Below are positions 1-64,000 of a stretch of DNA of 64,000 bases, piece after piece. Position numbers and translations under genes: made by a program. This DNA is from a virus. The notes beneath the pieces were generated by a model. The model saw nothing but the letters and a program-made list of their open reading frames with translations, did not search any database and was not told where the DNA came from. The stretch's first letter is position 1. Each line of letters begins with the position of its first letter. Location: positions 1 to 64,000 of the IMG/VR virus record IMGVR_UViG_3300031539_000009; one strand, 5' to 3'.

Positions 1-360
1 GTCGATGTCGCCCTGGTACAACTCGTTGCGGATGGCTTCACAGTAGTATGACATCAAATCCCAGAAGCCAACATCATACTTGCCCATGTCGGACAAATAC
101 TCCAGCCGGATTGTGTCGCCGTCCGACACCCGGACGTTGCGCCAGTCCTTGGGATCAAAGGTGTAAGCATAGCACACTCCGTGCCAACGTATGGGCTTGG
201 GAGCATCATTGAACGCCCTGGCCATATCATCGGCCACATCACAGTCCTTGGGGTCATCCTGCATCAATCCGGTCCCGGCCAGGCCAGTGGCTGAACAAAA
301 CTCATCGTTGTTCATATGCTCCGGGTTGATCACCTGTTCCGCTTTGATATAATCTGCCAT
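1..360 (-). CDS. Hypothetical protein, 3'-truncated by window edge (MADYIKAEQVINPEH...)
   Basis: Read by hand: ATG at 360 with GGGGAAGGA RBS, open to base 1; absent from the ORF track. Confidence 0.7.
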   Translation of the reverse strand, partial: MADYIKAEQVINPEHMNNDEFCSATGLAGTGLMQDDPKDCDVADDMARAFNDAPKPIRWHGVCYAYTFDPKDWRNVRVSDGDTIRLEYLSDMGKYDVGFWDLMSYYCEAIRNELYQGDID

Positions 361-374
361 TGTTCCTTCCCCCT

Positions 375-500
375 TCACCCTGTAATCCAGACCCTGCGCA
401 TGGTGTACCTGCGCCCGTGCCTGTCTGTGTACTCGCCCTTGCTTGTGTAAAACTTCTTGAGCTTGTATGCCCGTCCGCACTGTGCTTTCAATAATGCCAT
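375..500 (-). CDS. Small basic hypothetical protein (41 aa, MALLKAQCG...)
   Basis: 3' part of track ORF 375..683; purine-rich RBS before ATG at 500; fills the gap between neighbours. Confidence 0.5.
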   Translation of the reverse strand: MALLKAQCGRAYKLKKFYTSKGEYTDRHGRRYTMRRVWITG

Positions 501-513
501 CTTCTCATCCCCC

Positions 514-744
514 TTAAAATATGATTTTGACCAGGTGGTTGGTGGGCTGGCCATCCCAATCGCATATCTGTCCAAACCACTCGGTACCATCGGACATGAA
601 ATGTCCCCCGGCCCGGTCGCTGAACCTGAACTCAACACAGCCACCTTCCCATATGCCGGTCTTGTTGTCCTCAGCCGCCTCACAAATTTTGCTCCATCCC
701 TTGGCCACTGCGTTCTTGCGGAATCGCTTGAGGTTGGTGAGCAT
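514..744 (-). CDS. Hypothetical protein (76 aa); in-frame upstream ATG at 795 separated by one TGA
   Basis: ORF track; packing with neighbours. Confidence 0.6.
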   Translation of the reverse strand: MLTNLKRFRKNAVAKGWSKICEAAEDNKTGIWEGGCVEFRFSDRAGGHFMSDGTEWFGQICDWDGQPTNHLVKIIF

Positions 745-822
745 CCTGTCGCCCTTTTCCCCGGTTCACTCGATTTTTGTTTTTGTGTTGTTCATCGTCT
801 TGCTCCCTTGTTCCTTCCGTCC

Positions 823-1797
823 TTAATTCCTGCCAAACTCGCTGGTCCAATCCCCGGCCTCATCCTCAAGCTGGCTCACGTGACTGATCAACTCGCTGTC
901 CAGTTTGTCCATTTCGCCCTTGATGTGCTCCATCTCGCTGTCCATGCTCTGCTCACCTTCCATCCCGGCCAGCTTTCCGTCCTTGATCCCTTCCCTGACC
1001 TTGTCCATCGCTTCCATCGCTGCTCTGAGGTGGCGTATGGCATTTTCCATCTCATCCCTGACCTCAGCCGCCTTGTACTTGTCCAGACCCATGTCCTGGT
1101 CTGCTTCCGTGGTGCCCTCTGTGGCTTCCGTTGTCTCGGTGGCCGCCTTGACGATGGACAAGCCCGCTTCCGATAACTCAATTTGCGTCCCGGCAACATC
1201 ATACCCGTTGGCATTGCCCAACTCGTGAACATAGATCATCCCTTTGGTCGCCAGCTGCCCCATGTATCCGGCCACCTGCTGCTTGGTGAACTCAGGGCAG
1301 AACCCAGCAACCTGGTCCCCAAAAGTGAACTCACCGCCGGTCTCATCCATGGCGCTGGCGTGGACCGCCTTGAGCACCTTGGCCTCATTCTCGTTGAGCT
1401 TGTCGCCGTCATAATCCGCTTCCTGCTCGGTGGCCGCTTCCGGTCCGGCCAGGATTCTGTCAGCCTGAGCATATCCAGCTTCAATCATTTCCTTGACGAC
1501 CGCTCTGGTGTCCTCTTCAGACCTGAGATTGTAAACCGATCTGAATGTGACAACGTCGTCCATATTTTCAGAATCCCGGCTGCAGGACGTTTCCACCAAC
1601 ATAACCAACTCCAATCCGGCCCGGTCCCAAATGATGTCGTATAAGTTGACCTGCTTGGTCCTGATCCGGTCTGTCTCGTTGCGCTTCACAAAATCGGCCC
1701 GCCTGTAGACCTTTCCGACCTCGGTGCCGTTGATCTGAAGTGAATACTCTTTGCGTGATCCCTGGTCCATCGTCTTTTTCCAAATCGCCTTTTTCAT
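823..1797 (-). CDS. Early protein with central winged-helix-like segment and acidic coiled-coil C-terminus
   Basis: GGAGG RBS before ATG 1797, directly behind a sigma70 promoter; LNENEAKVL...QVAGYMGQLATKGMI...IELSEAG resembles wHTH. Confidence 0.7.
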   Translation of the reverse strand: MKKAIWKKTMDQGSRKEYSLQINGTEVGKVYRRADFVKRNETDRIRTKQVNLYDIIWDRAGLELVMLVETSCSRDSENMDDVVTFRSVYNLRSEEDTRAVVKEMIEAGYAQADRILAGPEAATEQEADYDGDKLNENEAKVLKAVHASAMDETGGEFTFGDQVAGFCPEFTKQQVAGYMGQLATKGMIYVHELGNANGYDVAGTQIELSEAGLSIVKAATETTEATEGTTEADQDMGLDKYKAAEVRDEMENAIRHLRAAMEAMDKVREGIKDGKLAGMEGEQSMDSEMEHIKGEMDKLDSELISHVSQLEDEAGDWTSEFGRN

Positions 1798-2016
1798 TTT
1801 CGTTTCCTCCATTTGTGTTTTCTCGATCATAATACAAGTATAGCTGATCTTGAATGGAAAGGCAAGAAAAAAATCGCCCAAGATCCAAACTTTTTTTGTA
1901 AAGCCAATTAATTCAAGCAGTTAGAAGACAACTTTTTTTTGGTGTAGCCCGACTTCTAAGATGTGCCAAAGGTAAAAAGGACCAAAATTGGCTTCCGGTG
2001 TGGATAGGTAGTGGGA
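1798..2016. repeat. ~200-bp early-promoter cassette repeat, copy 1
   Basis: Near-identical blocks at ~3423-3620, ~32660-32830, ~34100-34298. Confidence 0.9.
1837..1865 (-). promoter_or_regulatory. Strong sigma70-type early promoter, copy 1 (TTGCCT-N17-TATACT)
   Basis: -35 at 1860-1865, -10 at 1837-1842, A/T tracts upstream; repeated at three other loci. Confidence 0.9.
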
Positions 2017-2017
2017 T

Positions 2018-2045
2018 AAAAAATGGGCCGCTTTGTGGCGGCCCC
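2018..2045 (-). terminator. Rho-independent terminator
   Basis: Minus strand GGGCCGC-cacaaa-GCGGCCC then ATTTTTT, just after the stop at 2066. Confidence 0.8.
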
Positions 2046-2065
2046 GGAGTGGATAGTTGATGGGA

Positions 2066-2499: not shown

Positions 2500-2513
2500 C
2501 GCCCTTCCCCTTT

Positions 2514-3083: not shown

Positions 3084-3110
3084 CTTCTTGCCCCCTTCCT
3101 TGTCTCTGGA

Positions 3111-3999: not shown

Positions 4000-4657
4000 G
4001 ATGGACTATCAGCGGATCAGTCAAAAACACCGGACCCGTCTTGGTCAACACAAATCCGTGTTCCTGAGCCCATCGGAATAAATCACGGGTCAAAACAACG
4101 TCTTGTATGTTGTAGTCAATGAGTTCAGCCCACCTTCCCTGTTGATACAGGACCGGAGCATGCGCACCGTCGCCGGACTTCCCCCGGCCCAAGGTCAACT
4201 CACAAATGCTGTCCAGCCCATATCCGCCGTGGGTGGAAGGATTGAAGCATGGCCCGCAATCCATATTCCGCCAAACCTCGATCAGCAAATCAAAATCCGT
4301 CTTCACCCCGTTGACACCGTCCGTCACGGCTGGCCATACGTCCACATTCACGTGCCCGTTGGCAGCTATAACCGGCCTGGGCAGTTTACTCACGCCAGTT
4401 GCGCCCAACAAGACCGGATAGTCAAACCGGATGTGATTGAATCCCACGACCAACGGCGCAGATGCAAGCAGCCGCAATAAGTCATCGATGTTGTGATCAT
4501 CGAATATCATTATGCGCCCTTCCCGGTTGCTCCAGGCCACGCCCGAACTCACGCCCATCAAATGGTGATCCTTCCATCCATTGGGCAACTCTTCAATCCG
4601 CTTCTTGATCTCCAAGTCAAACACAACATAGTCTGACTCATTCCTCCAATTGACCAT
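3992..4657 (-). CDS. RNase H-fold DEDD 3'-5' exonuclease-like protein (YprB/RNase_H_2 type)
   Basis: VFDLEIK, VVGFNHIRFDY, YGLDSIC, YNIQDV motifs. Confidence 0.8.
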   Translation of the reverse strand: MVNWRNESDYVVFDLEIKKRIEELPNGWKDHHLMGVSSGVAWSNREGRIMIFDDHNIDDLLRLLASAPLVVGFNHIRFDYPVLLGATGVSKLPRPVIAANGHVNVDVWPAVTDGVNGVKTDFDLLIEVWRNMDCGPCFNPSTHGGYGLDSICELTLGRGKSGDGAHAPVLYQQGRWAELIDYNIQDVVLTRDLFRWAQEHGFVLTKTGPVFLTDPLIVHHG

Positions 4658-5537
4658 CTCTGTTCACCTCCACCTTTTTCTTTTTGAGTGGTATCCTCTT
4701 GAAGCAATCCCATGTCCCCTTTTCCCGGACCGCTAACATTGGAAAGTCAGACACAACATAATCCTTGATCTTGGCCCCGGTGATGATCTCATCTCGCATC
4801 ACCCAACCATTTCGATTCCACGTGCGATCATTCTTTTTTGCCAGCCGGTCAATCCCATCATGAAATCCCTCATCGCCCGTCGCCCATCGGTGCATCCTGT
4901 AAGACGACAAGCGCACAAAAAATTCATGCCCAGGACCGCCCCGGCTGCCGTTGGACCATCCCGCATATCCGTTCAACGGCAAGATGTCTTCCAATTCTTT
5001 GACTATGCTCAATGGCATAGCCACAGCGGCCAGGGTGTGCTTGGTCAACGCCTGGATCAATTCATCGACTGTTTTGTGATTGGTTTCGATCTTTGTGAGG
5101 TCATGGATGAAGAACAAATACATCACTTCCGGTTGGGTGAACGGAAAATCACAATTTTGAAGGTTTTCATATTCATTGGTCTGCCCGGTGTCCACAATGA
5201 ACCCATAACGCTTGGACCCGCCCTTCACTTCAACCAACACGTCATGAATTTCGCCCCCGAACTGGTGAGCACCCCAAATCACAACGTCAGGGTACACCAA
5301 CCAACCGGCTGGCCTTTCACCGAACTCACCGACTAGGATGTGAGCTGCCAAGGCTTCATAAAACTGCCCAATCACCACTTTCACTTTCCCCTCATTCAGC
5401 GGTTGCTGGTCTGGTTCCAATTCCTTGAACAACCAATCCTGTCTCAAACTATCGTCCATCCACTCAGGTATTGGCACCCTGTAACCTCTTGCGTATTTCA
5501 TCAAGTGTGTGGCCTGGAGTGTCCGGCCCCTCTTCAT
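4638..5537 (-). CDS. PD-(D/E)XK restriction-endonuclease-like nuclease
   Basis: GQFYE...YPDVV...VLVEVKG; start uncertain. Confidence 0.55.
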   Translation of the reverse strand: MKRGRTLQATHLMKYARGYRVPIPEWMDDSLRQDWLFKELEPDQQPLNEGKVKVVIGQFYEALAAHILVGEFGERPAGWLVYPDVVIWGAHQFGGEIHDVLVEVKGGSKRYGFIVDTGQTNEYENLQNCDFPFTQPEVMYLFFIHDLTKIETNHKTVDELIQALTKHTLAAVAMPLSIVKELEDILPLNGYAGWSNGSRGGPGHEFFVRLSSYRMHRWATGDEGFHDGIDRLAKKNDRTWNRNGWVMRDEIITGAKIKDYVVSDFPMLAVREKGTWDCFKRIPLKKKKVEVNRDGQLEE

Positions 5538-5958
5538 ATCCAAACACCTGGACCACATTTCCGTGCTCGGTGACCTCCACCCAGCTTTTCCTTTCCTTCC
5601 GTCTATTCTGCGCCCTGATTTTGCTGATCTGCTCCATGAGACTGGTCCCGTCCTCCATGGCAATGTTAACAATCCGCCTCAGCTGCTCTTGCATTTCATC
5701 TTTGGCAATCCTTTCCGCTTCTGCCAACCCGCCCCTCCAGGCCCGGACATCGATCAAACAGCACAACGGTTCAAAGAACAAACCTGTGTTATCAACGCAT
5801 TGTCTGTGAACAGCAAATTTCAATCGCCGCCCGGATTGGACTGCTTGCAACAGCTGATTCTTGTCGTGAACCAAATCCTGATCAAAAGCCATCTTAATCG
5901 CCAAAAAATGGTAATCAAGGTTGACTTTTCTGTTACAATGTATGCAAATGCCACTCAC
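5464..5958 (-). CDS. Hypothetical protein with N-terminal CxxC
   Basis: GTG at 5958 overlaps upstream TAG; AAGGA RBS. Confidence 0.6.
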   Translation of the reverse strand: MSGICIHCNRKVNLDYHFLAIKMAFDQDLVHDKNQLLQAVQSGRRLKFAVHRQCVDNTGLFFEPLCCLIDVRAWRGGLAEAERIAKDEMQEQLRRIVNIAMEDGTSLMEQISKIRAQNRRKERKSWVEVTEHGNVVQVFGYEEGPDTPGHTLDEIRKRLQGANT

Positions 5959-15597: not shown

Positions 15598-16644
15598 TTA
15601 CTTTGAAGTTGCCCGCTGCTTAATTTTTGCAAGCATGGCTGCGTGCAGCTTTGGATTTTCCTCGCACCACGCCCTGAATCCTTTTTCACCATTCCACTTC
15701 CCTTTTTCGCCCATGCTGAACCAGCTGCCGCTCTGTTGGATCATCCCGACCTTTTTGCCCAAATCCAAAGTGGCCTTGACATCATCCGTCCCCTTCCCGT
15801 ACAAAATCTGAAGCTCAACACGGGCAAACGGTGGCGCCACCTGGTTCTTGGCAATGTACGCTCCGATCTTGTTGCCGATGACTTTGGCATCAGCAGCTTC
15901 GCTTTCCTTGATCATCCCTTTTTTGTAAACCTCGATGATGGTGCTGGCATAAAATTTGGGAGCATTCCCGCACGCCGTCACCCGGTCATCTCCGAACTGG
16001 ACATTCATTTTCTGCCTGACCTGGCTGATAAACAAAAGAACAGTGTTGGACACGGCCACCAACGGAATGATCTTTTTCAGGGTCTGGCTCATCACGCCCG
16101 CCCCCGGCGCATAATGCTTCTGCTCATAATCCCCCTCAAGTTCAGCCTTGGTGGAAGATGCGTTCAAGGAATCAAACACGATGAGCAACGGAACATCTTT
16201 GGTCTTTTGGTGTATCTTCACAGCTGTTTCAATTACAGCCATGCATTTTTCCATATATGGCGGTTGCGATATGATGACCCGGTCGGTGTCCACTCCCAAC
16301 TTTTTCGCATATGCCAAGTCCAATTTGTGCTCCATGTCCATGTACAGGACTGCGCCGCCTTTCCTTTGCGCTTCAGCCGCCAGCTGGAGTGCTATGGTGG
16401 TCTTGCCGCCCGCTTCCGGCCCATAGATCATTGTCAATCGACCATATGGGACTCCCCAGACGCCAATGGCGTGGTCCAGCACGGGGTTGCCCGTTGATAG
16501 GACACCCCGCAGCTGGACCGATGGGCCACCGGCCCCGATGAGTTGAGCAGTTTCCTTTCCGTGATCCTTGATGATCCCTTCCAAGAGTGCTTCAACAGCA
16601 CCGGTGTTATTGGCGTCACCGTTTTGTTTTTGCCTGGTGACCAT
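15598..16644 (-). CDS. recA: RecA recombinase
   Basis: GPEAGGKTT, DMEHKLD, FISQVRQK, GNAPKFYAS, KNQVAPPF. Confidence 0.95.
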   Translation of the reverse strand: MVTRQKQNGDANNTGAVEALLEGIIKDHGKETAQLIGAGGPSVQLRGVLSTGNPVLDHAIGVWGVPYGRLTMIYGPEAGGKTTIALQLAAEAQRKGGAVLYMDMEHKLDLAYAKKLGVDTDRVIISQPPYMEKCMAVIETAVKIHQKTKDVPLLIVFDSLNASSTKAELEGDYEQKHYAPGAGVMSQTLKKIIPLVAVSNTVLLFISQVRQKMNVQFGDDRVTACGNAPKFYASTIIEVYKKGMIKESEAADAKVIGNKIGAYIAKNQVAPPFARVELQILYGKGTDDVKATLDLGKKVGMIQQSGSWFSMGEKGKWNGEKGFRAWCEENPKLHAAMLAKIKQRATSK

Positions 16645-17687: not shown

Positions 17688-18149
17688 TTAGACTTTTTGT
17701 TTGGTTTTGACAGGTGCCTTGGTGTTAAGACCTGTGGCCCCCATCTCTTCACGCATCAATGCCCCGCTGGACTGAAGCACGCTCACCTTGGCCCGGAATC
17801 CGTTATACACAGACCAAAGTGACTCGGCATTCCCCTTGGCCTCTGATATCTTTTCAGTGAATGTTTGATATTCCGGCCTTGCCTCAACAATGGCCTTGGT
17901 TTTCCATTCTGCCAACTTGGGGTCAGCGGCCAATATTTCCTGTCTGATCTTGGCTTTCCAGCCGGTGAATTCAGCATCCAGCTTTGCTACCAAAGCATTG
18001 GCCCCCGCCGCCTGTGAGCCATAATAGCCAATTTGCACCGCCACTTTTTTCATGTCCTGGTTGAGATCGGTGATCATCAACGCTTCCGTGACATCTTGTT
18101 CTTGCCACCCGCTTGGGGTGACCACGTTCACCTTCACCTCATATTTCAT
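17688..18149 (-). CDS. Helical protein, possible UvsY-like recombination mediator
   Basis: Size, helical pattern, position next to SSB/recA. Confidence 0.45.
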   Translation of the reverse strand: MKYEVKVNVVTPSGWQEQDVTEALMITDLNQDMKKVAVQIGYYGSQAAGANALVAKLDAEFTGWKAKIRQEILAADPKLAEWKTKAIVEARPEYQTFTEKISEAKGNAESLWSVYNGFRAKVSVLQSSGALMREEMGATGLNTKAPVKTKQKV

Positions 18150-18399
18150 CCTTTGCCACCCTTTCCTTGAGCTTTCCGTGCGCTCTGAAAATAATCGTGC
18201 GATATGGTTTGCACTGTACTTTTTCGCCGGTCATCGGGTTGAGCGCCACTCGCTGCTTGACCGACTTGATTCTGAAAGTGCCGAACCCCATCACCTTCAC
18301 CTCACCGCCGTTGTCACAAATTTCGACGATGGCATCAAATACTTTATCCACATCCTGCAAGCTCAACCCGCTTTTTTCTGCCACAGCCGCCCTTGACAT
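18139..18399 (-). CDS. HU/IHF-family DNA-binding protein
   Basis: GFGTF, R.ALNPMTGE, FRAHGKLKERV. Confidence 0.92.
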   Translation of the reverse strand: MSRAAVAEKSGLSLQDVDKVFDAIVEICDNGGEVKVMGFGTFRIKSVKQRVALNPMTGEKVQCKPYRTIIFRAHGKLKERVAKDEI

Positions 18400-18452: not shown

Positions 18453-21400
18453 TTAAAAAGCCCGCCCGACATGGACCACGGCCTGTACGATATATGACTG
18501 TTTGTACTTGTCGCTTTTTTGTTTCTCAACTTGCATTATCACAATATCACCAGTGGTCAACTTATCTTGATTTGGCTCATACAAATCGTTGAAGCAGAGC
18601 AACGAACCTACTGCGCCGCCGCCCGGACCCGTCAAGGTCAGAAAAGCCATCATGCCATTCTTGGCCTCATGCCGCTTGCAATCGGTCACCATTCCATATA
18701 TCAACGCCTCAGCCCCGTGTGCTGTTTTGGCCAGCCGCTTGAACGGATTTGCCTTGACCAGTTTTTCACCTTTTTCCTTCCATTCCTCCACCAGCTGATC
18801 CCTTTCAGACGGTCCCAAATGTATGGCATCCCTGGCTTCCCTTTCCCCTTCCGACACCATCAAATCAACAGCAATGCGACTGTAACGCTCCAATGGGTCC
18901 TCAAAAAAGTACATCTCATATGGATTCAGGCCTGACCGCTCTGGCTTTCCTTCCGCCGTCGCCGTCGCAATCTTGTTCTCAACATCGTCCAGATCAGCCA
19001 TGAACTGTACACGCATCGTCTTGGACTTAGCAAACAACGACACCTTCATGGCCACGCACGTCCCGATTCCCTTTTCAATAATGGGCCTGAACTCATCGAA
19101 CTTATCAATGTCCAGCTTAATCCTCCAATGGACATGCGTCTCATCCTGGACGTTGAAATTGCTGTACCTCTTTTTCCAACCAATCCGGTCCTTTTCCGCC
19201 TGATCCGGCTCTGTGGTGTGGAAGTCACCGACCTGGTTGAAGCGGACATCGATGATTTGCCCTCTGATGAACGCATCGCCACCATCCCAAGGCAATTGAT
19301 CCAATGGGCTGAATTTGATGTGCGGACCGAACTGATCCAACAGGTCATCGTACAACTCAACCGGATGCTTGTCCATTGGAAGCGGGCACACATCTATCGA
19401 CATGCGCACCAGCATCTCTGGTGTGAAATCTTCTTCACTGGCCGACTGGGCCAGCACCTTATCAACGCTGTCATATTCGTGTTTGTCGCAGTACTTCAGA
19501 AGTGTCTCGACATTCTCCAAAAAAAACTTGACGTTGGGAATCAAACCGGTGAACGCCCCGGCCTTGACTAACATCTCAACGGACCGCTTGTTCACATATG
19601 ACTTTCCCACCCGCTTCCTGAAATTGCCGAATGAGGTGAACTCGCCATCCTTGTCCCGCTCCAACTCAATTTTTTCGATTCCCTTATTGGTCACCCACTT
19701 GATCTTATTCAAAGCAAATATGATCCGGCTCTTGCTATCTATCCTGAAGTGTTTGTTGCTGTGATTAATGTGGGGTTTGATAATCTCCACCCCCAGCCTT
19801 TCCGCTTCCTGTATAGTCCTGGCCGCTGTTTCTGAATCAGGCTCATGCTTGAGTAAAGCCCACATGAATTCCACAGGATAGTACACTTTGAGCCACATCT
19901 CCCAATAAGCAATGGCCGCATATGCGACTGCGTGCGATTTGTTAAAGCCATATGAACCAAAGAATACAATGGAGTCAAACAGCTTCGCCGCCTTTCCCTT
20001 TTCCATCCCGATCTTGGCCGCCCCCTCCATGAATCGGTCCTTTTCCTTGGTTATGACTTCCACGCCCGCCTTTTTGGCAATATCCTTCCTGAGTGAGTCA
20101 GCCGTTCCAGGCTCATATCCGCCGATCTGCTTAAAAATCTGAATGACCTGCTCCTGGTACACGATGACGCCATATGTCGGCCCGGTAATGGCATCATATG
20201 CTGGGTGTATTTTTTCCCACTTCGCCCCGTTTTTGCGCTCCACATACTTGGTCGCCAGACCGGACCTTGCTGTGCCCGGCCTGTTCAACGCATTCATGGC
20301 GGCCACGTCCTCAAATGAGTCAAATGTAATCGCTTCAGCCAGGTTGAACATCGATGTCGTGTCATACTGGAATATCCCAGCAAACTGTCTGTCTGTGAAC
20401 GATTTGAACACCTTGTCATCGTCCATCGGCATCCCTTCCAGATCAATTTCCTTCCCGTGTCGCCGCTTAATTTCACCCAGACAGTCCCCGACCACGGACA
20501 GGTTGCGCAACCCCAAAACATCCAACTTGAGCAACCCAAAATCTGTGCACCCCCAAAAATCCACTGCTGTACAGGGTGTGACCGCCTTGTCTGTTTTCTG
20601 TACCTCCATCGGAACAATGGTGGACAGTTTCCTGGGTCCAATCACAACCCCGGCTGCGTGGACCCCTTTCTGGCGTGCCTGTCCTTCCAAAGACATCACC
20701 AGTGGCAATATTTCAGGGTGTCTGGCGTTAAACTCCTGGCACACCTTAAACTCTTTGAATGAATCCTGAACGGTCTGGCTGGCCCGCTCATCGCCGGATG
20801 ACCTCTCAACAATGCTGTTGGTGACCTGCGCCACCTCATTCATGTGTATTTTATGGACCCTGGAGACATCCCTCAGACATTGCTTCCCTTTCAATGTTCC
20901 CACGGTCCCGATCAATGAAGTGTTTTCCGCCCCATACCTATCAATCAAATAATCAATGACTTCTTGGCGCCGAACGTCCTCAAAATCCATATCAATATCA
21001 GGCATGTCTATCCGGCCCGGACTCATGAACCTTTCAAACAACAATTCATGCTCCACCGGGTCAACCGATGTGATGCCCAACAAGAATGACACCAAACATC
21101 CCGCCGCCGAACCACGACCAGGACCAACTACCATTTCCTGTTTCCGCACCCACTTGTAAAGATCATGGACAATCAGGAAATATCGCTCAAACTTGCTTCC
21201 CAAAATTGCCCTCATTTCCATTGACACCCGCTCTGAATATATCCTGATGGCATCCTCATAGCTGATGTGACGATTCCTGGCCAGTCGCCTGGCACGCTCT
21301 GGCACGTTGCGCCACGCCCAGCCATCCTTACACAACTGAAATATGTATTGCTTTTCCGTCAATCCGGCTGGCACCTCAACGTCCGGCAGAATACAGGCGA

Positions 21401-22346
21401 ACTTGTCCAGCTTTAAGTCCACATTACAACGCTCAGATAGTTGGACGGAATTGTCCATCATCTCGAACATGTCACCCTTTTCTATCCACGGGTGATATCT
21501 GCGGACTGCCCCCATCATTTCCTTGGGAGTGCGAAACCAAAAATCATGGGTGTCAAATTTGAAACGATTGGGGTCATCTAAGGTCTGTTTGAATTGAAGG
21601 CACATCAGGACTTCTTGCTGCAACCAATCATCCGGCCTGAGATAATGAACATCATTGGTCAGGATGGGCTTGAACCCGAACTGCTTGGCCATTTTCAAGA
21701 TATACTGATTGGACTCATCCTGGCCATCTATTTCGTTGGGCATCACCTCGCCATACACTCGATCAGGCCCAAAAATATCCAACAACTTTTTCAGGTGCCT
21801 GGCCGCTTTCCGGTGATCGCCCTCCAGGAATGGCTTGCTGAGTATTCCGCCAACGCACGCCGTCCCGACCATTATGCCCTCTTGATGCTTTTCCAAAACT
21901 TCCCAATCAACTCTGGGCCTATTGCGATACAAGCCAGTGAGCCAACCTTCCGATGTCAGCTGGAATAGATTGCTCAATCCTGTTTCGTTCATGGCCCAAG
22001 CGCACAAATGCCATGTCTCGCTGATTCCCAATTCCCTTTCCCTGTCCTTCACCCACTTGCGCCGCTGCCCTGAAGGAATGTCTTGCGCCAACGCTTTTTC
22101 CTCTTCAGGCAACGCTGTCTTGCGCCGGTCGCCGGTGACATACAGTTCACAACCATAAACCGGCTTCACGCCCGCCCCTTTGGCTGCCTTGTGGAACCTG
22201 TAAACACCACGCATTGATCCGTGGTCGGTCATCGCCACCCTTTCGTGACCAGCTTCTTTGGCCCGCTCCATAAGATCGGTGACCCGGCCCACACCGTCTA
22301 ACAGGCTGAACTCGGTGTGTAGGTGGGCATGGAAGTGATATGGCAT
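18453..22346 (-). CDS. dnaE: DNA polymerase III alpha subunit
   Basis: HLHTEFSLLDG PHP domain, GRGSAAG, MPDIDMDF, KLDVLGL, YGFNKSH. Confidence 0.96.
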   Translation of the reverse strand: MPYHFHAHLHTEFSLLDGVGRVTDLMERAKEAGHERVAMTDHGSMRGVYRFHKAAKGAGVKPVYGCELYVTGDRRKTALPEEEKALAQDIPSGQRRKWVKDRERELGISETWHLCAWAMNETGLSNLFQLTSEGWLTGLYRNRPRVDWEVLEKHQEGIMVGTACVGGILSKPFLEGDHRKAARHLKKLLDIFGPDRVYGEVMPNEIDGQDESNQYILKMAKQFGFKPILTNDVHYLRPDDWLQQEVLMCLQFKQTLDDPNRFKFDTHDFWFRTPKEMMGAVRRYHPWIEKGDMFEMMDNSVQLSERCNVDLKLDKFACILPDVEVPAGLTEKQYIFQLCKDGWAWRNVPERARRLARNRHISYEDAIRIYSERVSMEMRAILGSKFERYFLIVHDLYKWVRKQEMVVGPGRGSAAGCLVSFLLGITSVDPVEHELLFERFMSPGRIDMPDIDMDFEDVRRQEVIDYLIDRYGAENTSLIGTVGTLKGKQCLRDVSRVHKIHMNEVAQVTNSIVERSSGDERASQTVQDSFKEFKVCQEFNARHPEILPLVMSLEGQARQKGVHAAGVVIGPRKLSTIVPMEVQKTDKAVTPCTAVDFWGCTDFGLLKLDVLGLRNLSVVGDCLGEIKRRHGKEIDLEGMPMDDDKVFKSFTDRQFAGIFQYDTTSMFNLAEAITFDSFEDVAAMNALNRPGTARSGLATKYVERKNGAKWEKIHPAYDAITGPTYGVIVYQEQVIQIFKQIGGYEPGTADSLRKDIAKKAGVEVITKEKDRFMEGAAKIGMEKGKAAKLFDSIVFFGSYGFNKSHAVAYAAIAYWEMWLKVYYPVEFMWALLKHEPDSETAARTIQEAERLGVEIIKPHINHSNKHFRIDSKSRIIFALNKIKWVTNKGIEKIELERDKDGEFTSFGNFRKRVGKSYVNKRSVEMLVKAGAFTGLIPNVKFFLENVETLLKYCDKHEYDSVDKVLAQSASEEDFTPEMLVRMSIDVCPLPMDKHPVELYDDLLDQFGPHIKFSPLDQLPWDGGDAFIRGQIIDVRFNQVGDFHTTEPDQAEKDRIGWKKRYSNFNVQDETHVHWRIKLDIDKFDEFRPIIEKGIGTCVAMKVSLFAKSKTMRVQFMADLDDVENKIATATAEGKPERSGLNPYEMYFFEDPLERYSRIAVDLMVSEGEREARDAIHLGPSERDQLVEEWKEKGEKLVKANPFKRLAKTAHGAEALIYGMVTDCKRHEAKNGMMAFLTLTGPGGGAVGSLLCFNDLYEPNQDKLTTGDIVIMQVEKQKSDKYKQSYIVQAVVHVGRAF

Positions 22347-22349: not shown

Positions 22350-22832
22350 TTACCTCTCATCATTGGGCAATCTCGGAAAGTATTTCAAAACGTCCTTGAA
22401 CGCTTTCAGACTATGGCCAAACAACTTAACTGATTGCCCCAGTTTCTGGGCTGCTTGGACGTCAAATGGGGTGAACAACGCATCCCTGATTTCAGTGTCC
22501 GTGAACCCATTTTCTGCATGTTTGTTTATATGGAATCCGATGACCTCTTTCAACTCAGCTGGATACGCACCATGAAGAATGTATATCAAATAGTTGATCC
22601 CCTCAGCCGTCCTGGCCAGGCGTGATACCAGCTTCCCCTTGTGCGGACCGAACTTCAACCTGGCATCCGGCAGACCGCCATCGTGCGGCAGAATAACTGT
22701 GTGCTGGTCGTGAAGATCAGCCTCAACCTGCGTTGCTTCCTGTTCCGCTTCCGTCTCAATCGTGGGCGCAATTCCATCCTGGGAATTCCCGCCCCTTTGA
22801 AACATTTCCCTGATTTTGTCTTTTGTGCTCAT
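22350..22832 (-). CDS. Hypothetical protein with FGxHKG...YL motif (DUF3820/ExoX C-terminal-like)
   Basis: LKFGPHKGKLV...NYLIYI. Confidence 0.55.
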   Translation of the reverse strand: MSTKDKIREMFQRGGNSQDGIAPTIETEAEQEATQVEADLHDQHTVILPHDGGLPDARLKFGPHKGKLVSRLARTAEGINYLIYILHGAYPAELKEVIGFHINKHAENGFTDTEIRDALFTPFDVQAAQKLGQSVKLFGHSLKAFKDVLKYFPRLPNDER

Positions 22833-23391
22833 CAATGAACCTCTTGGCAACCTCCAAAGTCACTGTTGGCCCATACCCGCTGGTGTCAATGCTCAACTTT
22901 GGAATTCGATTAACCATGCCACATGTCCGATCTAATTGGGTGGCCACATGCCACCAATCTTTTTCATCCTCCAACGGGAATTTTTCATGCTTGCAACGCT
23001 TCTTTGAATCCTCATAGCAACAGCCCAAATACAAGTACACGACCGGACCGCCGCCCTGCAAAAGACTTTCCTGCCAAACATCCATCCACGACTTTATCCG
23101 TGGATCATTTTCATCAAATTCACCGTACAACGAACCATAAGCAATCGCTGAGGGCAAGGACCGATCCAAAATCACATTCCTTCCAACCTGCCCCAGCACC
23201 TCTGCCACGAGAACATCCTCAATGTAACTATTCACAGGAATGCCAATTTGGCGCATCCCTTCCACAATCTCGTTGAAATTCCGTCCGGCCCGCCGGAATG
23301 ATCGGAACACAGGCCAACGTGTCCGCCTTTCCAGCTGCTCGCAAAGACTTGTCTTGCCCGATCCATTGATGCCCTCAGCAATTACTATCAT
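22756..23391 (-). CDS. P-loop nucleoside monophosphate kinase (thymidylate kinase-like)
   Basis: IAEGINGSGKTS, ILDRSLPSAIAYG. Confidence 0.8.
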   Translation of the reverse strand: MIVIAEGINGSGKTSLCEQLERRTRWPVFRSFRRAGRNFNEIVEGMRQIGIPVNSYIEDVLVAEVLGQVGRNVILDRSLPSAIAYGSLYGEFDENDPRIKSWMDVWQESLLQGGGPVVYLYLGCCYEDSKKRCKHEKFPLEDEKDWWHVATQLDRTCGMVNRIPKLSIDTSGYGPTVTLEVAKRFIDEHKRQNQGNVSKGREFPGWNCAHD

Positions 23392-56946: not shown

Positions 56947-57150
56947 TTACCTCTTGCCCGTTTTTCCTGTCTTATCCTTTATGGCCTTCACTTCTCTATC
57001 CAGCTGCGTGTTGGTCCGTTCCAACATCCACAGCCGGTCCTTGACCGGAAGCACCAAAAGTGACTCCCAAGTCAGCCCCGGAACATGATACATTAGCAGA
57101 AAGCATTGTTCCAGAACCTGATGCCAGGGCTGAATTTCCATCAGGTTCAT
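56947..57150 (-). CDS. Tail assembly chaperone extension (gpT-like)
   Basis: -1 frame to upstream chaperone; precedes tape measure. Confidence 0.7.
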   Translation of the reverse strand: MNLMEIQPWHQVLEQCFLLMYHVPGLTWESLLVLPVKDRLWMLERTNTQLDREVKAIKDKTGKTGKR

Positions 57151-57929
57151 GAGAAAAAACTATCATATTCCCACCTTAATATGGCCTGGAAGTTGACACC
57201 GCACCGCTCACACTTTCCCTCCACCGCCATAAGCGGACCAGCATTGTGCTCTTCAACCTCTGCCATCAAAAAGTTGATGTCACGCTTGGTCATTCCTGCC
57301 AAGGAATCTTCTGTGAGCGCCAAAGGATTCTGGTCCAGCCCCTTAATGGCCATGATGGCACTGATGAAATACTGCTCGGCCAGGTCGCCAGCATTCTTTG
57401 CGTCCTCAGCCTTGAGTGACTCGATGGCGGCCCACTTGGTCGGCTGGATGACCAGATTTTTCCGAACCTTCCCGCTCAACTCAAATCCGTCCTGAAGCTT
57501 CACGTTGCGGGTCAATTCATCTTTTGACTCTTTGACCCGGACAGACAGCGTTTCAAGATCAGCCTTGAACTTGATGTTGTTCCGGCAACTGCCGCACACG
57601 ATGGGCATTGACAGGTCTTTTCCCAACGCCACATATCGCAGGTAAATGTACATGTACAGCACGTCGGACATCGCCATCTGGTTGATGGCGAGCAATCGGT
57701 GAGGCTCAGGTTTTTCCCCGAACTTTTCCCCGGCCAACACAGAAATCATGTTTGCCAAGATGATGGAAGTGAATTGGCCCTGGTTCAAGTCATCGGTCCG
57801 CTTTCCGCCAATGATTTTTTCCTGGGCCATCGTCCATGACTTGCAATCGAAGTCACGGACAAGCTCATCGCCCTTGAGAATGCCGATGGGTAGCACCGGC
57901 CCTTGTTCTTTCAATGTAACCGTCTTCAT
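57147..57929 (-). CDS. Tail assembly chaperone with two CxxC motifs
   Basis: Between tube and tape measure; ends DSFFS. Confidence 0.7.
   Translation of the reverse strand: MKTVTLKEQGPVLPIGILKGDELVRDFDCKSWTMAQEKIIGGKRTDDLNQGQFTSIILANMISVLAGEKFGEKPEPHRLLAINQMAMSDVLYMYIYLRYVALGKDLSMPIVCGSCRNNIKFKADLETLSVRVKESKDELTRNVKLQDGFELSGKVRKNLVIQPTKWAAIESLKAEDAKNAGDLAEQYFISAIMAIKGLDQNPLALTEDSLAGMTKRDINFLMAEVEEHNAGPLMAVEGKCERCGVNFQAILRWEYDSFFS
57153..57159 (-). other. Candidate -1 ribosomal frameshift heptamer T TTT TTC
   Basis: AGT TTT TTC TCA TGA at chaperone end. Confidence 0.7.
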
Positions 57930-60766: not shown

Positions 60767-60796
60767 GGTTTTTCAACCCCCTTTTTAGATTTTCCA

Positions 60797-61993
60797 TCAC
60801 TCCGCAACCTTTGCCGTCACCCTGAAGTCATTGATTATGAACTTGTCTTCAGCAGGTGTTGTCAATATCGGCACATATCTTACCTCAATTGGTATGATCA
60901 CTTGCTTGTAATCACCCAAATTTGGCCTGTTATTCGTTTCCACAGCAGGCATTACTACCAGGGTGTATTCTTCATCCAGCCCAACAGACCGGAACACGCC
61001 CAGGCCTTGTAAAAAATCTTCCATTGCCTGCCTCATCCTCTGCTGGTCAACTCCCAACTCGGATATTCCTAACAAATTGAATGTGAACGTCTCAACCATG
61101 CTGTCGCTGAATTCAATGGCCGTGGTCCCGTCCCCACTCGTCACGCTTTCCTTTCCTTGCGGTGTCATCCTGCTGCCTGTGTCATATCCTACCAGAACCA
61201 ATGCTGGCAATTTTTCCAACTGCAAAAAATCCTGATGGTATGTATAGATGACTTCCAGCTTGTATTTCAGCTTCACCCGGACTTTCGTGCCAGACACGAC
61301 CGCTTCTGTCAAGTTGATATTGATTCCGTCAAAGGAATCGAACAGGCTGCCAAATACGCCATCGACCAGGACTGCCTCAACCCCGACTACATCCAGGCCC
61401 ACTCCCAGCGCAGATATGGCAATCTCGTTGGCAGTAGCCTCCATTTCATAGATAACATCTGCCGTCGGATTGATCCCGGACTCCAGGACTGGAATGAGAC
61501 TCCTGAAAATCAGGTCTTCATATACCGCAATGTCGCACAACATCGCAAATCTCAACTCCAACAGTTGCGGTGTAACAGCCCGGTCCTCAGTGTACAGGTT
61601 GCTCACGACTTGCAAACGCTGATTGAGCCAAGCTGATATGTGTTCCCTGACTTCAGCTTCCGTGTTCCAATCCAGATCATCATCCAGCACCTCAACCCAA
61701 GCAAACCCATCCCACCAGTAATCAGTCGCCCCGTCCGATATTCTGTGTCTGATGTACGTCCCTTCCGGTTTGATAGACACTTCTTGGAACGCACCCAACC
61801 ACTGAATAAGTGACGTTGGGTTGGTCACCCAAGACCTGACAGTCATTGTGAGATCAAGAGGATACCAGCCATCAGACTGTGCCTTGAGTTGAATCCACCC
61901 TTTGGGATTGAGCCTGATCTGGCTGGGATCACTCAAGATTATATTTGGTCTGGCTTGCTCGTTGTATGAGAAGCATTTCAGCACCCTCTTCAT
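60797..61993 (-). CDS. Neck/tail-terminator region protein
   Basis: Upstream of sheath; KLPALVL motif. Confidence 0.6.
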   Translation of the reverse strand: MKRVLKCFSYNEQARPNIILSDPSQIRLNPKGWIQLKAQSDGWYPLDLTMTVRSWVTNPTSLIQWLGAFQEVSIKPEGTYIRHRISDGATDYWWDGFAWVEVLDDDLDWNTEAEVREHISAWLNQRLQVVSNLYTEDRAVTPQLLELRFAMLCDIAVYEDLIFRSLIPVLESGINPTADVIYEMEATANEIAISALGVGLDVVGVEAVLVDGVFGSLFDSFDGININLTEAVVSGTKVRVKLKYKLEVIYTYHQDFLQLEKLPALVLVGYDTGSRMTPQGKESVTSGDGTTAIEFSDSMVETFTFNLLGISELGVDQQRMRQAMEDFLQGLGVFRSVGLDEEYTLVVMPAVETNNRPNLGDYKQVIIPIEVRYVPILTTPAEDKFIINDFRVTAKVAE

Positions 61994-62559
61994 CTCGCAA
62001 TTTCCCTCATGGTCATCTGCATCGCCATCTTCCAACGGTTTTGCAGGTCTTTGGATACACTTCCTGTGTATGCCAATTTAATAAATGGCCTTGGCGGAAT
62101 TACAATCACCGTGGTAGAATCCAACAATGGTTTTATCACGCCGCCCGTTTCATGAGCCAAATATCTGAAATATGCCCTCATCCGATCTGTCACCTGGATG
62201 CTGGCACCTTCATGTAGTGTGACGCCAATGTCGTACTGCTCCGAACCTTTTATGATTCCTGCGAACGCTTCCCGCCAACTAACAACCCTGGTGTTGACGT
62301 TCATCCACAAGCTGCCTTCATCCACCAACGGCTTATCACTTGACTTCCCTGAACCCTTGTGGTGCATTTGTGACAACCCTGTTATTCCAGGATTCACACC
62401 GCCCTTAATGGTGGCTTGAATTTCCTTTTGAACCACCAACGCATTTTGGCGTGTAGCCCGACCAACATTGCGCTCCATGTTGGCCTTGAACTTGGCCGGA
62501 TTCAACCCGGCCTGCAATGCTTTCCATGGTCCTGTCAGTCTGATGAATTCCGCCATCAT
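61990..62559 (-). CDS. Neck/tail completion protein
   Basis: KPLVDEGSL, LHEG, IPPRPFI. Confidence 0.75.
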   Translation of the reverse strand: MMAEFIRLTGPWKALQAGLNPAKFKANMERNVGRATRQNALVVQKEIQATIKGGVNPGITGLSQMHHKGSGKSSDKPLVDEGSLWMNVNTRVVSWREAFAGIIKGSEQYDIGVTLHEGASIQVTDRMRAYFRYLAHETGGVIKPLLDSTTVIVIPPRPFIKLAYTGSVSKDLQNRWKMAMQMTMREIAR

Positions 62560-62951
62560 GCCGCCTCTGGCTTGTCGCCAAAATACGCTTTCAACAACCC
62601 GGCCCCGTTTTGATCAGGATAGTGCCCCATTGGCGCAAATCCTCTGATGTAAGTGTCTTGAACACTCATGAACCCGATCTTCACCACCCGGTCCTGCCGG
62701 TTGATACTGATCCCTGCCTCCAACAACTCCGACACGCTGAAAAGCAAATAGCCACGTGCGTAATAACCAACGCCCGCTTCCCTGGCCTTGGGATCATCCA
62801 TATTGAACCATTTGACCTGCGCATCAACCGTGATTCGTTTCGTCTTGGTTTGACGAACAGGCTCACGTGCCTCTTCATCCCAGGCAGTGGCCTCTGGATC
62901 AACCTGGTCTATCACCACGGATATCGGGTGTATAAGATTTGGTCTGGCCAT
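62556..62951 (-). CDS. Probable head closure protein
   Basis: Position and size. Confidence 0.55.
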   Translation of the reverse strand: MARPNLIHPISVVIDQVDPEATAWDEEAREPVRQTKTKRITVDAQVKWFNMDDPKAREAGVGYYARGYLLFSVSELLEAGISINRQDRVVKIGFMSVQDTYIRGFAPMGHYPDQNGAGLLKAYFGDKPEAA

Positions 62952-63634
62952 TTGTTCCTCGGTGCCCCTATGAGCAATGGACTCCTGTAGCGTCCAAGAA
63001 TCCTGTCCACATCCTGATCCCCGGTGGAATCAGGCCTGTTGAATGACGACCCTGCCGCTGTGGCATATGTTATTGAGTGGCCGTCTGTTATTTCCTGCTT
63101 GATTGGCCCGGCTGCATTGCTTCCCCCGGTCCCGCCAAATCCATCGGCAGCTGTGTTGGCCACCAGTCTGTACATCGCCTTGATGATTGGAACTGGTGTG
63201 GATCCATCCGGCTCTATGTATCCGAACCTGCCAATGAATTTTTGCTGGTATCCTTTCAAAAATAAACCAGCACTGGTACCAACAAAAATATTCCGCCGTT
63301 GCCGCTTGAGTTCAACTCTGGGGTTGCGTCGATCATCCGGCCAAGAAATGGAATTGTGAACAATGTAATTCTCAACCGGCTGTGGAATCTCATCCTCATT
63401 CAAATACATTTCGTTGATCTCGATTATGGGCACGCCAAAAAACATCACTGCGCTGTCAGCCCCGTCGATCACAATCTCAAGCATCCTGGCGTTGAACCAT
63501 TGCCTGGTGACCAACTCCACAGTTGCCTGCGCATCCAATATCACCAACCAAGCCGCATCTTCATCGACTTTGTCCCGATTCAAAACCCCAGCATCATACA
63601 ACTCTTCTGGGGTCACATACGCATATTCCCTCAT
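62912..63634 (-). CDS. Head-tail adaptor
   Basis: AYVTPEEL, GRFGY..TPVPI, DGHSITY, VDRILGRYR. Confidence 0.72.
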   Translation of the reverse strand: MREYAYVTPEELYDAGVLNRDKVDEDAAWLVILDAQATVELVTRQWFNARMLEIVIDGADSAVMFFGVPIIEINEMYLNEDEIPQPVENYIVHNSISWPDDRRNPRVELKRQRRNIFVGTSAGLFLKGYQQKFIGRFGYIEPDGSTPVPIIKAMYRLVANTAADGFGGTGGSNAAGPIKQEITDGHSITYATAAGSSFNRPDSTGDQDVDRILGRYRSPLLIGAPRNKWPDQILYTRYPW

Positions 63635-64000
63635 GATCCCACCGCCTTTTTCGCTTCCCCAAATCCCGGAATATCACCGATGCTGGACAACGACTGTGGC
63701 TTGGCATCAGGGCTGTACCTTGGTTTCCCAACCTTAGCCACATCAACCCTGGCCATGTTATTGGTATAGTACACCAACAAGGTTATGCGAATATCATCTG
63801 CTTGGCAGGATATGTATTCACCAATCCGCTTCCCTTTGTATTTCCCGGAATCCCCCACGACCATCTTGGCCCCAAAACGGATTGCCTTGAACTTCTTGGG
63901 AATTGGAAAAGTGTGCATGACCTTTCGATGGTGTATGGCCATCCCTGATATATGGGCTGCCTGCTCTTTCAAATACGCTTCACACGCTTGAATTCCGCCG
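63631..64000 (-). CDS. Hypothetical protein, probably 5'-truncated by window edge
   Basis: Track ORF 63631..63972; ATGA overlap downstream. Confidence 0.5.
   Translation of the reverse strand, partial: GGIQACEAYLKEQAAHISGMAIHHRKVMHTFPIPKKFKAIRFGAKMVVGDSGKYKGKRIGEYISCQADDIRITLLVYYTNNMARVDVAKVGKPRYSPDAKPQSLSSIGDIPGFGEAKKAVGS

What the first reader, a model, noticed from the sequence alone, without database searches (positions are those of the whole stretch)
1..64000. CGAG and CGACG occur almost only on one strand
Seen (manual scan of CGA on the + strand): CGAG only at 23208-23211 and 57689-57692, while its reverse complement CTCG occurs about 19 times in the first 3 kb. CGACG was seen once (~18324) while CGTCG is common. 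CGAC, CGAT and CGAA are all frequent. Established: Type III restriction needs two inversely oriented asymmetric sites, and T7 escapes EcoP15I because its sites are co-oriented; I recall CGAG as a Type III Mod target (H. influenzae ModA4; verify). Inference: the genome has been polarised against one or more orientation-dependent systems. Alternatives: avoidance of CUCG/CGUCG in mRNA (sequence-specific RNase) or a strand-specific ssDNA-targeting defence.
Basis: partly seen in the sequence, partly recalled or inferred. Interest (0 to 1): 0.75.

Follow-up and report, generated by a model that had tools for sequence, protein, structure and literature searches.

The report
One-strand purge of short restriction-like motifs
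An uncultured 82 kb soil phage has removed one orientation of several 4-5-base words (CGAG, CGACG and others), far beyond what codon usage explains and more strongly than the T7/EcoP15I case, but whether the pressure acts on DNA or on RNA could not be settled.

Summary
On the window's + strand, CGAG occurs 2 times against 158 for CTCG, and CGACG once against 45 for CGTCG (whole 82 kb genome: 6 vs 187 and 1 vs 53). All genes lie on the - strand. On the mRNA-sense strand, CTCG is 6 observed against about 132 expected from synonymous-codon shuffles (60 by a phase-specific Markov model), in all three codon phases, while CGAG is near expectation. Among 120 four-mer pairs this is the outlier (robust z 9.8).

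CGTCG, CGCCG, CCCCG, CGAAC and CGACT behave the same way. The genome also lacks CGCG (1/214) and 22 of 53 testable 6-bp palindromes.

A sister phage (73% nucleotide identity) shares most one-orientation purges, and no residual site is shared, so selection is ongoing. T7, two Streptomyces phages and most clade relatives lack the pattern.

Best reading (about 0.45): avoidance of orientation-dependent, hemimethylating restriction (Type III-like). Problems: 6 inverted CGAG sites remain, and two motifs have no adenine. An RNA-level cause (about 0.25) cannot be excluded, because the genome and every relative fetched are transcribed in one direction. The host is unknown. Another first-stage note on this genome had already flagged the CGCG absence.

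The parts
1..64000 (-). Window of a unidirectionally transcribed phage genome. Every called gene is on the - strand. On the sense strand, CTCG, CGTCG, CGCCG, CCCCG, CGAAC and CGACT are purged, while their reverse complements stay near expectation.
   Evidence: Gene calls: (0 bp of + strand genes). Motif statistics.
23208..23211 (+). One of two residual + strand CGAG sites in the window (sense CTCG, codon phase 0, in the dNMP-kinase-like gene 22756-23391).
   Evidence: Not shared with the sister phage.
57689..57692 (+). Second residual + strand CGAG site in the window (sense CTCG, phase 0, gene 57147-57929).
18324..18328 (+). The only + strand CGACG in the whole genome (sense CGTCG, gene 18139-18399).
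4454..4458 (+). Residual + strand CGGCG (sense CGCCG). The other residual sites in the window are at 16105, 39549 and 40619.
   Evidence: Sense CGCCG is 5/95 against CGGCG 210/118.
18453..22346 (-). DnaE-type DNA polymerase, used as the marker to recover the sister phage and clade relatives.

Best explanation
The phage lineage is under selection from host defences that recognise short asymmetric DNA words, methylate only one strand, and cut only when two unmethylated copies face each other (Type III, Type ISP or MANTIS-like systems). By removing the rarer orientation of each word (CGAG, CGACG, GTTCG and AGTCG as read on the window's + strand), the phage leaves the remaining copies head-to-tail, so few cleavable pairs remain. 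Shown: the one-orientation purge, its independence from codon usage and codon phase, its restriction to this lineage, its maintenance by ongoing selection, and the very strong ordinary restriction-site avoidance in the same genome. Inferred: that the agent acts on duplex DNA and depends on site orientation. Also inferred: each minority-orientation site multiplies the risk of cleavage, so escape probability is about p to the power n (p = chance that a minority-orientation site is methylated before it is cut; n = number of such sites). That would explain gradual purging of the rarer orientation.
For: (1) The same genome shows extreme avoidance of palindromic Type II-like sites: CGCG 1/214, and 22 of 53 testable 6-bp palindromes at O/E < 0.2 against 7.8% of non-palindromic 6-mers. 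So this lineage answers restriction by losing sites. (2) The purge acts at the nucleic-acid level, in all codon phases, and is not generic. T7, Coruscant and Yaboi have no 4- or 5-mer purged in one orientation, and most clade relatives have CTCG at expectation. (3) The same duplex words recur as targets elsewhere with different polarity. CGAG and CTCG are the two most depleted 4-mers, in both orientations, in the unrelated contig L019 (1/21 and 4/24, CGCG normal). CGAAC/GTTCG is purged mainly as sense CGAAC in ours, the sister, L013, L016 and L017, but mainly as sense GTTCG in L005, L007 and L009. CGWCG is purged in both orientations in the sister but only as CGTCG in ours. (4) Ongoing selection: at 73% nucleotide identity the retained orientation turns over freely (CGAG 20 shared, 59 ours-only, 42 sister-only), while no residual purged-orientation site is shared. 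(5) Precedent: T7/EcoP15I (PMC12707154), the CGAG specificity of a Type III ModA allele (PMC10073500), and graded orientation preference in MANTIS (bioRxiv 10.64898/2026.09.23.753747). (6) In most cases the purged orientation is the one with the lower expected count, as the minority-site argument predicts. This last point is weak.
Against: Six inverted CGAG sites remain, and 1-11 for the other words. T3 is restricted by EcoP15I with only a few inverted pairs (PMC12707154), so escape from a strict Type III enzyme would be incomplete. At least six to nine words are purged in one orientation, which would need many orientation-dependent systems or a highly allelic one. CGGCG/CGCCG and CGGGG/CCCCG contain no adenine, yet the Type III, ISP and MANTIS systems covered by the papers read here mark their sites by adenine methylation. 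A background depletion of C-rich words on the sense strand exists (O/E about 0.35-0.55), so part of the pattern is sense-strand composition rather than defence. The host and its defence systems are unknown. A survey of phage genomes found no systematic strand-asymmetric avoidance (PMC6286503).
Confidence: 0.45

Rival explanations
1. RNA-level selection. One or more ribosome-independent, sequence-specific endoribonucleases (host toxin-antitoxin or abortive-infection RNases of the MazF or HEPN kind, or a phage RNase that spares its own transcripts) cut CUCG, CGYCG, CCCCG, CGAAC and similar words in single-stranded RNA. These words are therefore purged from all mRNAs, which here all derive from one DNA strand.
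For: Depletion is confined to the mRNA-sense strand, extends to intergenic (probably transcribed) sequence (0 CTCG against 13 CGAG), and is independent of codon phase. It needs no adenine, so it covers CGCCG and CCCCG. Incomplete purging is natural if each site affects only its own transcript. Several purged words share a C-B-(Y)-CG form (CSYCG 10/238 with its complement at 481/482), which could be one relaxed specificity. Residual sites are slightly more base-paired in predicted mRNA folds than matched controls (0.27 vs 0.30 unpaired).
Against: The structure trend is not significant (p = 0.08). Residual sites sit in highly expressed essential genes (major capsid, TerL). The purged set is heterogeneous: CUCG, CGAAC, CGACU and GACUC, with UUUCG in the opposite sense. 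The same duplex words are purged in the opposite or in both orientations in other unidirectional phages, which would need separate RNases for a word and for its complement. I know of no RNase with CUCG specificity (my own knowledge; one literature search on RNase motif avoidance in phages gave nothing relevant).
Confidence: 0.25
2. Single-stranded-DNA-level targeting. The sense strand is both the non-template strand in transcription bubbles and, if replication runs with transcription, the lagging-strand template. A sequence-specific ssDNA nuclease, ADP-ribosyltransferase (DarT-like) or deaminase would see only that strand's words.
For: The uniform polarity and uniform GC skew across all 82 kb fit one strand being persistently exposed. 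It needs no adenine. It acts at the nucleic-acid level in all codon phases.
Against: There is no deamination-type signature: where the sister has CTCG, ours has CACA, TTAG, AGCG, TTGG or CCAG. The DarT motifs I recall are T-centred and differ from these words (my own knowledge). Several distinct specificities would again be needed. No direct evidence on the replication mode.
Confidence: 0.1
3. No dedicated orientation-specific agent. The pattern would be a composite of strong purine loading and C-rich-word avoidance on the sense strand, overlap with many avoided palindromes (CTCGAG, CYCGRG, CCCGGG and others), and context-dependent mutation.
For: C-rich G/C-only pentamers are generally at O/E 0.35-0.55 and their G-rich complements at 1.1-1.9. 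G001 and other clade members also purge CCC-containing words in one orientation. Many palindromes containing CTCG or CCCG are avoided.
Against: CTCG is depleted in every 3' context (CTCGA 1/45, CTCGG 0/36, CTCGT 1/23, CTCGC 4/28), so palindrome overlap cannot explain it. Related words such as TCCG (1.13), ATCG (0.91) and GTCG (0.74) are not depleted. CGCCG and CCCCG lie 5-8-fold below the C-rich background. Equally purine-loaded clade relatives have CTCG at expectation. Sites are purged by heterogeneous substitutions.
Confidence: 0.1

Closest known systems
T7 and EcoP15I: all 36 CAGCAG sites head-to-tail (Meisel et al. 1992, as summarised in PMC12707154)
   Same: A unidirectionally transcribed virulent phage in which an asymmetric word is present many times in one orientation and missing in the other. 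The accepted meaning is escape from a restriction enzyme that needs inverted site pairs.
   Different: In the same pipeline T7 gives 0 observed against about 9 expected. Here the figures are 6/132, 1/63, 5/95, 3/48 and 8/73. Here the words are 4-5 bases, there are several of them, purging is not complete, two words lack adenine, and no cognate enzyme or host is known.
Type III methyltransferase ModA of H. influenzae with 5'-CGAG-3' specificity (Atack et al. 2015, listed in PMC10073500)
   Same: Shows that a 4-base CGAG specificity exists in an orientation-dependent restriction-modification class.
   Different: It comes from a human-associated gammaproteobacterium, with no link to a soil phage. 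Among published Type III words only the CGA-type ones (CGAG, CCGAA, CGAAT, CGAAG) are depleted here. ACAGC, CCTGA, ACACC, AGACC and CAGCAG are not.
Classical avoidance of palindromic Type II sites in virulent phages (Sharp 1986; Rusinov et al. 2018, PMC6286503)
   Same: CGCG at 1/214 and 22 of 53 six-base palindromes near zero. T7, Coruscant and Yaboi show the same kind of avoidance.
   Different: Palindrome avoidance is symmetric by definition and cannot produce the one-strand pattern. Rusinov et al. looked for strand-asymmetric avoidance and found no systematic case.
MANTIS (formerly Gao_RL), a BREX-related system with graded preference for inverted sites (bioRxiv 10.64898/2026.09.23.753747)
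   Same: Hemimethylates asymmetric sites. Inverted pairs give strong restriction and direct repeats give weak restriction. A graded response would reward stepwise removal of minority-orientation sites.
   Different: Its known sites are 6 bp with adenine methylation, in Pseudomonas. Nothing ties it to this phage.

Membership tests
Strand-polarised site avoidance against orientation-dependent restriction (T7/EcoP15I paradigm) | An asymmetric word is abundant in one orientation and nearly absent in the other across the whole genome | tested here: met
   CGAG 6 vs CTCG 187 and CGACG 1 vs CGTCG 53 on the + strand, with uniform polarity in all 4 kb bins.
Strand-polarised site avoidance against orientation-dependent restriction (T7/EcoP15I paradigm) | The depletion exceeds codon-usage and composition expectation, and the retained orientation is not depleted | tested here: met
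   CTCG 6/132 (shuffle) and 6/60.5 (Markov). CGAG O/E is 1.07 (Markov) and 0.60 (shuffle). Robust z = 9.8 among 120 pairs.
Strand-polarised site avoidance against orientation-dependent restriction (T7/EcoP15I paradigm) | No inverted site pairs remain, as full escape from a strict Type III enzyme requires | tested here: not met
   Six inverted CGAG sites remain, and 1-11 for the other words. T3 is restricted with a few inverted pairs (PMC12707154).
Strand-polarised site avoidance against orientation-dependent restriction (T7/EcoP15I paradigm) | The motif contains an adenine that can be hemimethylated, as in the Type III, ISP and MANTIS systems described in the papers read | tested here: inconclusive
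   CGAG, CGACG, CGAAC and CGACT contain A. CGGCG/CGCCG and CGGGG/CCCCG do not.
Strand-polarised site avoidance against orientation-dependent restriction (T7/EcoP15I paradigm) | Polarity belongs to the DNA molecule, not to the direction of transcription | not testable with these tools
   The genome, the sister phage and all clade loci fetched are unidirectional. The bidirectional Streptomyces relatives lack the purge.
Strand-polarised site avoidance against orientation-dependent restriction (T7/EcoP15I paradigm) | The host encodes a cognate orientation-dependent system with this specificity | not testable with these tools
   The host is unknown. The source is soil metagenomes, and the only genome hit is a 43%-identical TerL in a Bdellovibrionota MAG.
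Type II palindromic restriction-site avoidance | Short palindromes are near absent relative to a codon-aware expectation | tested here: met
   CGCG 1/214, TCCGGA 0/27, GTCGAC 0/20, CCGCGG 0/23 and others; 22 of 53 six-base palindromes at O/E < 0.2.
Avoidance of mRNA-interferase (MazF-like) cleavage motifs | The depletion is on the transcript sense strand only and is independent of reading frame | tested here: met
   This is equally predicted by the DNA-level model in a unidirectional genome.
Avoidance of mRNA-interferase (MazF-like) cleavage motifs | Surviving motifs are protected in double-stranded RNA | tested here: inconclusive
   Mean unpaired probability 0.27 (34 residual sites) against 0.30 (672 matched controls), one-sided p = 0.08.

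The most novel reading that the evidence does not exclude
The phage is polarised against a set of short words that includes adenine-free ones (CGGCG, CGGGG). This would mean its host population uses a strand- or orientation-sensing, sequence-specific defence of a kind not yet described. Candidates are a cytosine-hemimethylating system with site-orientation preference, or a defence that reads motifs on one exposed strand (non-template or lagging-template ssDNA, or nascent RNA). The phage's oligonucleotide spectrum would then be a readable imprint of that system's specificities.
Probability: 0.2. Interest if true: 0.85.

Novelty: new variant of a known kind. Interest (0 to 1): 0.62.

Why it matters
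Strand-asymmetric site avoidance has essentially one textbook example (T7/EcoP15I), and a genome-wide survey found no systematic further cases (PMC6286503). This phage and its sister give a much stronger, multi-motif example, maintained by ongoing selection. The exact words (CGAG/YCGAG, CGACG, GTTCG, AGTCG, CGGCG) are directly testable predictions for the specificities of defence systems in an uncultured soil host. The case also shows that orientation-resolved, codon-aware k-mer spectra of unidirectional phages can reveal defences that symmetric analyses miss. If the agent proves to act on RNA or single-stranded DNA, it would be the first genome-wide phage imprint of such a sequence-specific defence that I am aware of.

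Tried and rejected
1. I used synonymous-codon shuffles, codon-order shuffles and a phase-specific Markov model instead.
2. My first two-strand greedy ORF caller produced spurious antisense genes and contaminated the sense counts. I replaced it with a codon-model caller.
3. IUPAC motif enumeration ranked by log-p returned broad, moderately depleted classes. I re-ranked by near-absence.
4. G001, a complete 83 kb clade member, seemed to purge the same words in both orientations, but it is globally CpG-poor (rho CG 0.47), so it is not informative.
5. The flip-with-gene-direction test failed for lack of material. The clade is unidirectional, and the bidirectional Streptomyces BE-cluster relatives lack the purge.
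6. Host assignment failed. There are no tRNAs and no close deposited phage. The endolysin matches only the PG-binding domains of Rhizobium phages. The genome-contig scan gave only a 43% TerL in a Bdellovibrionota MAG.
7. No phage-encoded sequence-specific nuclease was recognised. Pfam, PHROGs, PADLOC and PDB sequence searches were negative for the 344-aa protein at 4638-5672.
8. The RNA-structure protection test was not significant.
9. Matching to published Type III motifs showed only that CGA-type words are depleted, so I did not use it as support.


Full report
WHAT THE SEQUENCE IS. The window is the first 64 kb of a single 82,156-bp viral contig from soil metagenomes. It is a tailed phage. 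It encodes TerL, portal, a MuF-like protein, a prohead protease and a major capsid protein. It has its own replication and recombination set: DnaE, DnaB, primase, RecA, a gp32-like SSB, a fused SbcCD and UvsW. It also encodes a sigma factor, a CobT-like protein, with a CobS-like partner noted by the first stage, a ThyX-like/aminotransferase/nucleotidase operon and a CHAP endolysin. A codon-model gene caller puts every gene on the - strand, with 0 bp of + strand genes. The sense strand is purine-rich. No deposited phage is close. The capsid protein's nearest deposited relatives are the ~130 kb Streptomyces BE-cluster phages at 36-38% identity. TerL has many uncultured relatives at 40-46% identity on 75-120 kb contigs.

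THE OBSERVATION. In the whole genome the counts are 6 vs 187 and 1 vs 53, with the same polarity in every 4 kb bin.

IS IT MORE THAN CODON USAGE? In sense-strand terms the depleted words are CTCG and CGTCG. The codons CTC (197), TCG (152) and CGN (713) are all in normal use. Synonymous-codon and codon-order shuffles expect 131-137 CTCG, with a minimum of 109 in 200 shuffles, against 6 observed. CGTCG is 1 against 62-64. A phase-specific maximal-order Markov model, which absorbs all trinucleotide and junction biases, still expects 60.5 CTCG and 23 CGTCG. The complements are at O/E 1.07 (CGAG) and 0.82 (CGACG). The depletion is present in all three codon phases (CTCG 3/75, 2/16, 1/41), so it is not a codon-pair or ribosome-linked effect. 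After codon correction, CGAG/CTCG is the outlier among all 120 non-palindromic 4-mer pairs (robust z 9.8, next 4.2).

THE PATTERN IS BROADER THAN REPORTED. An unbiased scan adds sense-strand CGCCG (5/95, complement CGGCG 210/118), CCCCG (3/48, complement 176/149), CGAAC (8/73, complement GTTCG 97/86) and CGACT (11/57, complement 59/53). All are phase-independent. CSYCG as a class is 10/238, while its complement CGRSG is 481/482. Some asymmetric words are purged in both orientations: CGAAG/CTTCG and CTACG/CGTAG. CGCG is almost absent (1/214), and 22 of 53 testable 6-bp palindromes are at O/E < 0.2, against 7.8% of non-palindromic 6-mers. They include the sites of SacI, SacII, SalI, NruI, MluI, XhoI, PvuI, SmaI and BspEI (enzyme names from my own knowledge). 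Internal Shine-Dalgarno-like GGAGR is also avoided (90/315). So this lineage answers restriction by losing sites on a large scale.

CONTROLS. With the identical pipeline, T7's EcoP15I case is 0 observed against about 9 expected, and T7 has no 4- or 5-mer meeting the one-orientation criteria. Streptomyces phages Coruscant and Yaboi (about 49% GC) show ordinary palindrome avoidance, CTCG at expectation (338/316 and 233/261) and no one-orientation words. Most clade relatives, which are equally unidirectional and purine-loaded, have CTCG at expectation. The signal is therefore neither a methodological artefact nor a generic consequence of purine loading. There is a background depletion of C-rich G/C-only words on the sense strand (O/E 0.35-0.55), but CGCCG and CCCCG lie 5-8-fold below it.

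EVOLUTIONARY BEHAVIOUR. A sister phage was recovered as two contigs from another metagenome (G002 and G003, 44.7 kb; DnaE 80% and TerL 84% amino-acid identity; 73% nucleotide identity over 34.5 kb). It shares CGCG absence (0/96) and the one-orientation purges of CGCCG (4/40 vs 96/63), CCCCG (0/25 vs 92/78), CGAAC (2/35 vs 35/37) and CGACT (0/21 vs 24/27). It differs in instructive ways. It has purged CTCGR (0/44) but keeps CTCGY (15/25). It lacks CGWCG in both orientations (1/26 and 0/47). At aligned positions the retained orientation turns over freely (CGAG: 20 shared, 59 ours-only, 42 sister-only). No residual purged-orientation site is shared (CTCG: 0 shared, 2 and 6 private), and the replacements are heterogeneous rather than a single mutational signature. 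The depletion is therefore held by continuing purifying selection in both lineages, and the specificity of the selective agent has shifted slightly between them. In our genome, 4 of the 6 residual CTCG sites and the only CGCG lie in the head module at 66-75 kb.

DNA LEVEL OR RNA LEVEL? The clean test is whether polarity flips with gene direction. It cannot be done here, because the genome, the sister phage, a complete 83 kb clade member (G001) and all other clade loci are unidirectional. The only bidirectional relatives lack the purge. Indirect evidence favours recognition of duplex DNA.
- The purge sits in a genome with extreme Type II-like site avoidance.
- The same duplex words are targets elsewhere with other polarities. 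CGAG and CTCG are the two most depleted 4-mers, in both orientations, in the unrelated contig L019, where CGCG is normal.
- CGAAC/GTTCG is purged mainly as GTTCG in L005, L007 and L009, but as CGAAC in ours, the sister, L013, L016 and L017.
- CGWCG is purged in both orientations in the sister and in one orientation in ours.

An RNase model would need separate enzymes for a word and for its complement. The predicted-structure test for protection of residual sites was not significant (p = 0.08).

MECHANISM PROPOSED. Hemimethylating systems with a site-orientation preference (Type III, Type ISP, MANTIS) cut only between inverted unmethylated sites (PMC12707154; bioRxiv 10.64898/2026.09.23.753747). 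When one orientation is already rarer because of purine loading, cleavage risk depends on the number of minority-orientation sites that must each be methylated before they are cut. Each loss of such a site then gives the same multiplicative gain, as for Type II sites. This is my inference. It predicts gradual purging of the rarer orientation, which is what is seen in most cases, and a small mutation-selection residue for 4-mers.

The weaknesses are as follows. Six inverted CGAG sites remain. The number of one-orientation words (six to nine) implies several systems or a highly allelic one. CGGCG and CGGGG have no adenine. The host is unknown. I therefore put this explanation at about 0.45, RNA-level selection at about 0.25, an ssDNA-level agent at about 0.1, and a purely compositional or composite origin at about 0.1.

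COMPARISON WITH THE KNOWN. A survey that looked explicitly for strand-asymmetric avoidance found no systematic cases (PMC6286503). This makes the pair of phages a much stronger, multi-motif variant of a rarely documented strategy. Only CGA-type words among published Type III sites are depleted here, so I draw no family assignment from motif identity.

VERDICT.

Noticed in passing
whole genome (window 1-64000 and L001): CGCG occurs once (genome coordinate 74952) against about 214 expected. Of 53 testable 6-bp palindromes, 22 are at O/E < 0.2 (TCCGGA, CCGCGG, GTCGAC, CGATCG, CCCGGG, TTCGAA, TCGCGA, GAGCTC, TTTAAA, AGCGCT and others). This is very heavy Type II-like site avoidance.
   Followed up: yes
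genome 66158-74952 (L001:3158-11952), head and packaging module: Four of the six residual sense CTCG sites and the only CGCG cluster in the capsid/MuF/portal/TerL module. It may be a recently recombined segment that has not yet been purged.
   Followed up: partly
coding regions of the whole genome: Internal Shine-Dalgarno-like words are strongly avoided inside genes (GGAGR 90/315, VGKAGR 17/241), and anti-SD-like CCTCC is 2/31, while GGAGG occurs about 59 times overall. The TA dinucleotide is very low (rho 0.42).
   Followed up: partly
G001 (IMGVR_UViG_3300032046_000015, loci L028-L032): A complete 83 kb clade member with terminal repeats is globally CpG-poor (rho CG 0.47). It has no CGCG (0/87), TGCA at 73/317 and TCGA at 43/202. 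This is a different and equally strong avoidance profile.
   Followed up: partly
L019 (IMGVR_UViG_3300012000_000044, 12.5 kb): In this unrelated viral contig CGAG (1/21) and CTCG (4/24) are the two most depleted 4-mers while CGCG is normal. So a 4-base CGAG-type target seems to be avoided in both orientations there.
   Followed up: partly
L005 and L009 (IMG/VR clade members, DnaE 45% identical): Sense TTCG (4/45, 3/32 by Markov) and GTTCG (1/18, 1/13) are purged more strongly than their complements, and CGCCG is 0/22 and 0/15 against CGGCG near expectation. These are further cases of orientation-biased purging, with polarity partly opposite to ours.
   Followed up: partly
sister phage G002+G003 (L033-L035): The sister has purged CTCGR (0/44) but not CTCGY (15/25), and lacks CGWCG in both orientations. 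The avoided specificities have shifted between two phages that are 73% identical in nucleotide sequence.
   Followed up: yes
L001:2222-3421 (major capsid protein): The nearest deposited relatives are the ~130 kb low-GC Streptomyces BE-cluster phages (Coruscant, Yaboi, Mildred21) at 36-38% identity. This is a weak hint of an actinobacterial host. The TerL of a Bdellovibrionota MAG (L052) is 43% identical.
   Followed up: partly
window, sense strand: TGCA is at about half its expectation (144/265), even though other first-stage notes describe TGCA-based repeat elements in intergenic regions. In the sister it is 67/135 and in G001 73/317.
   Followed up: no
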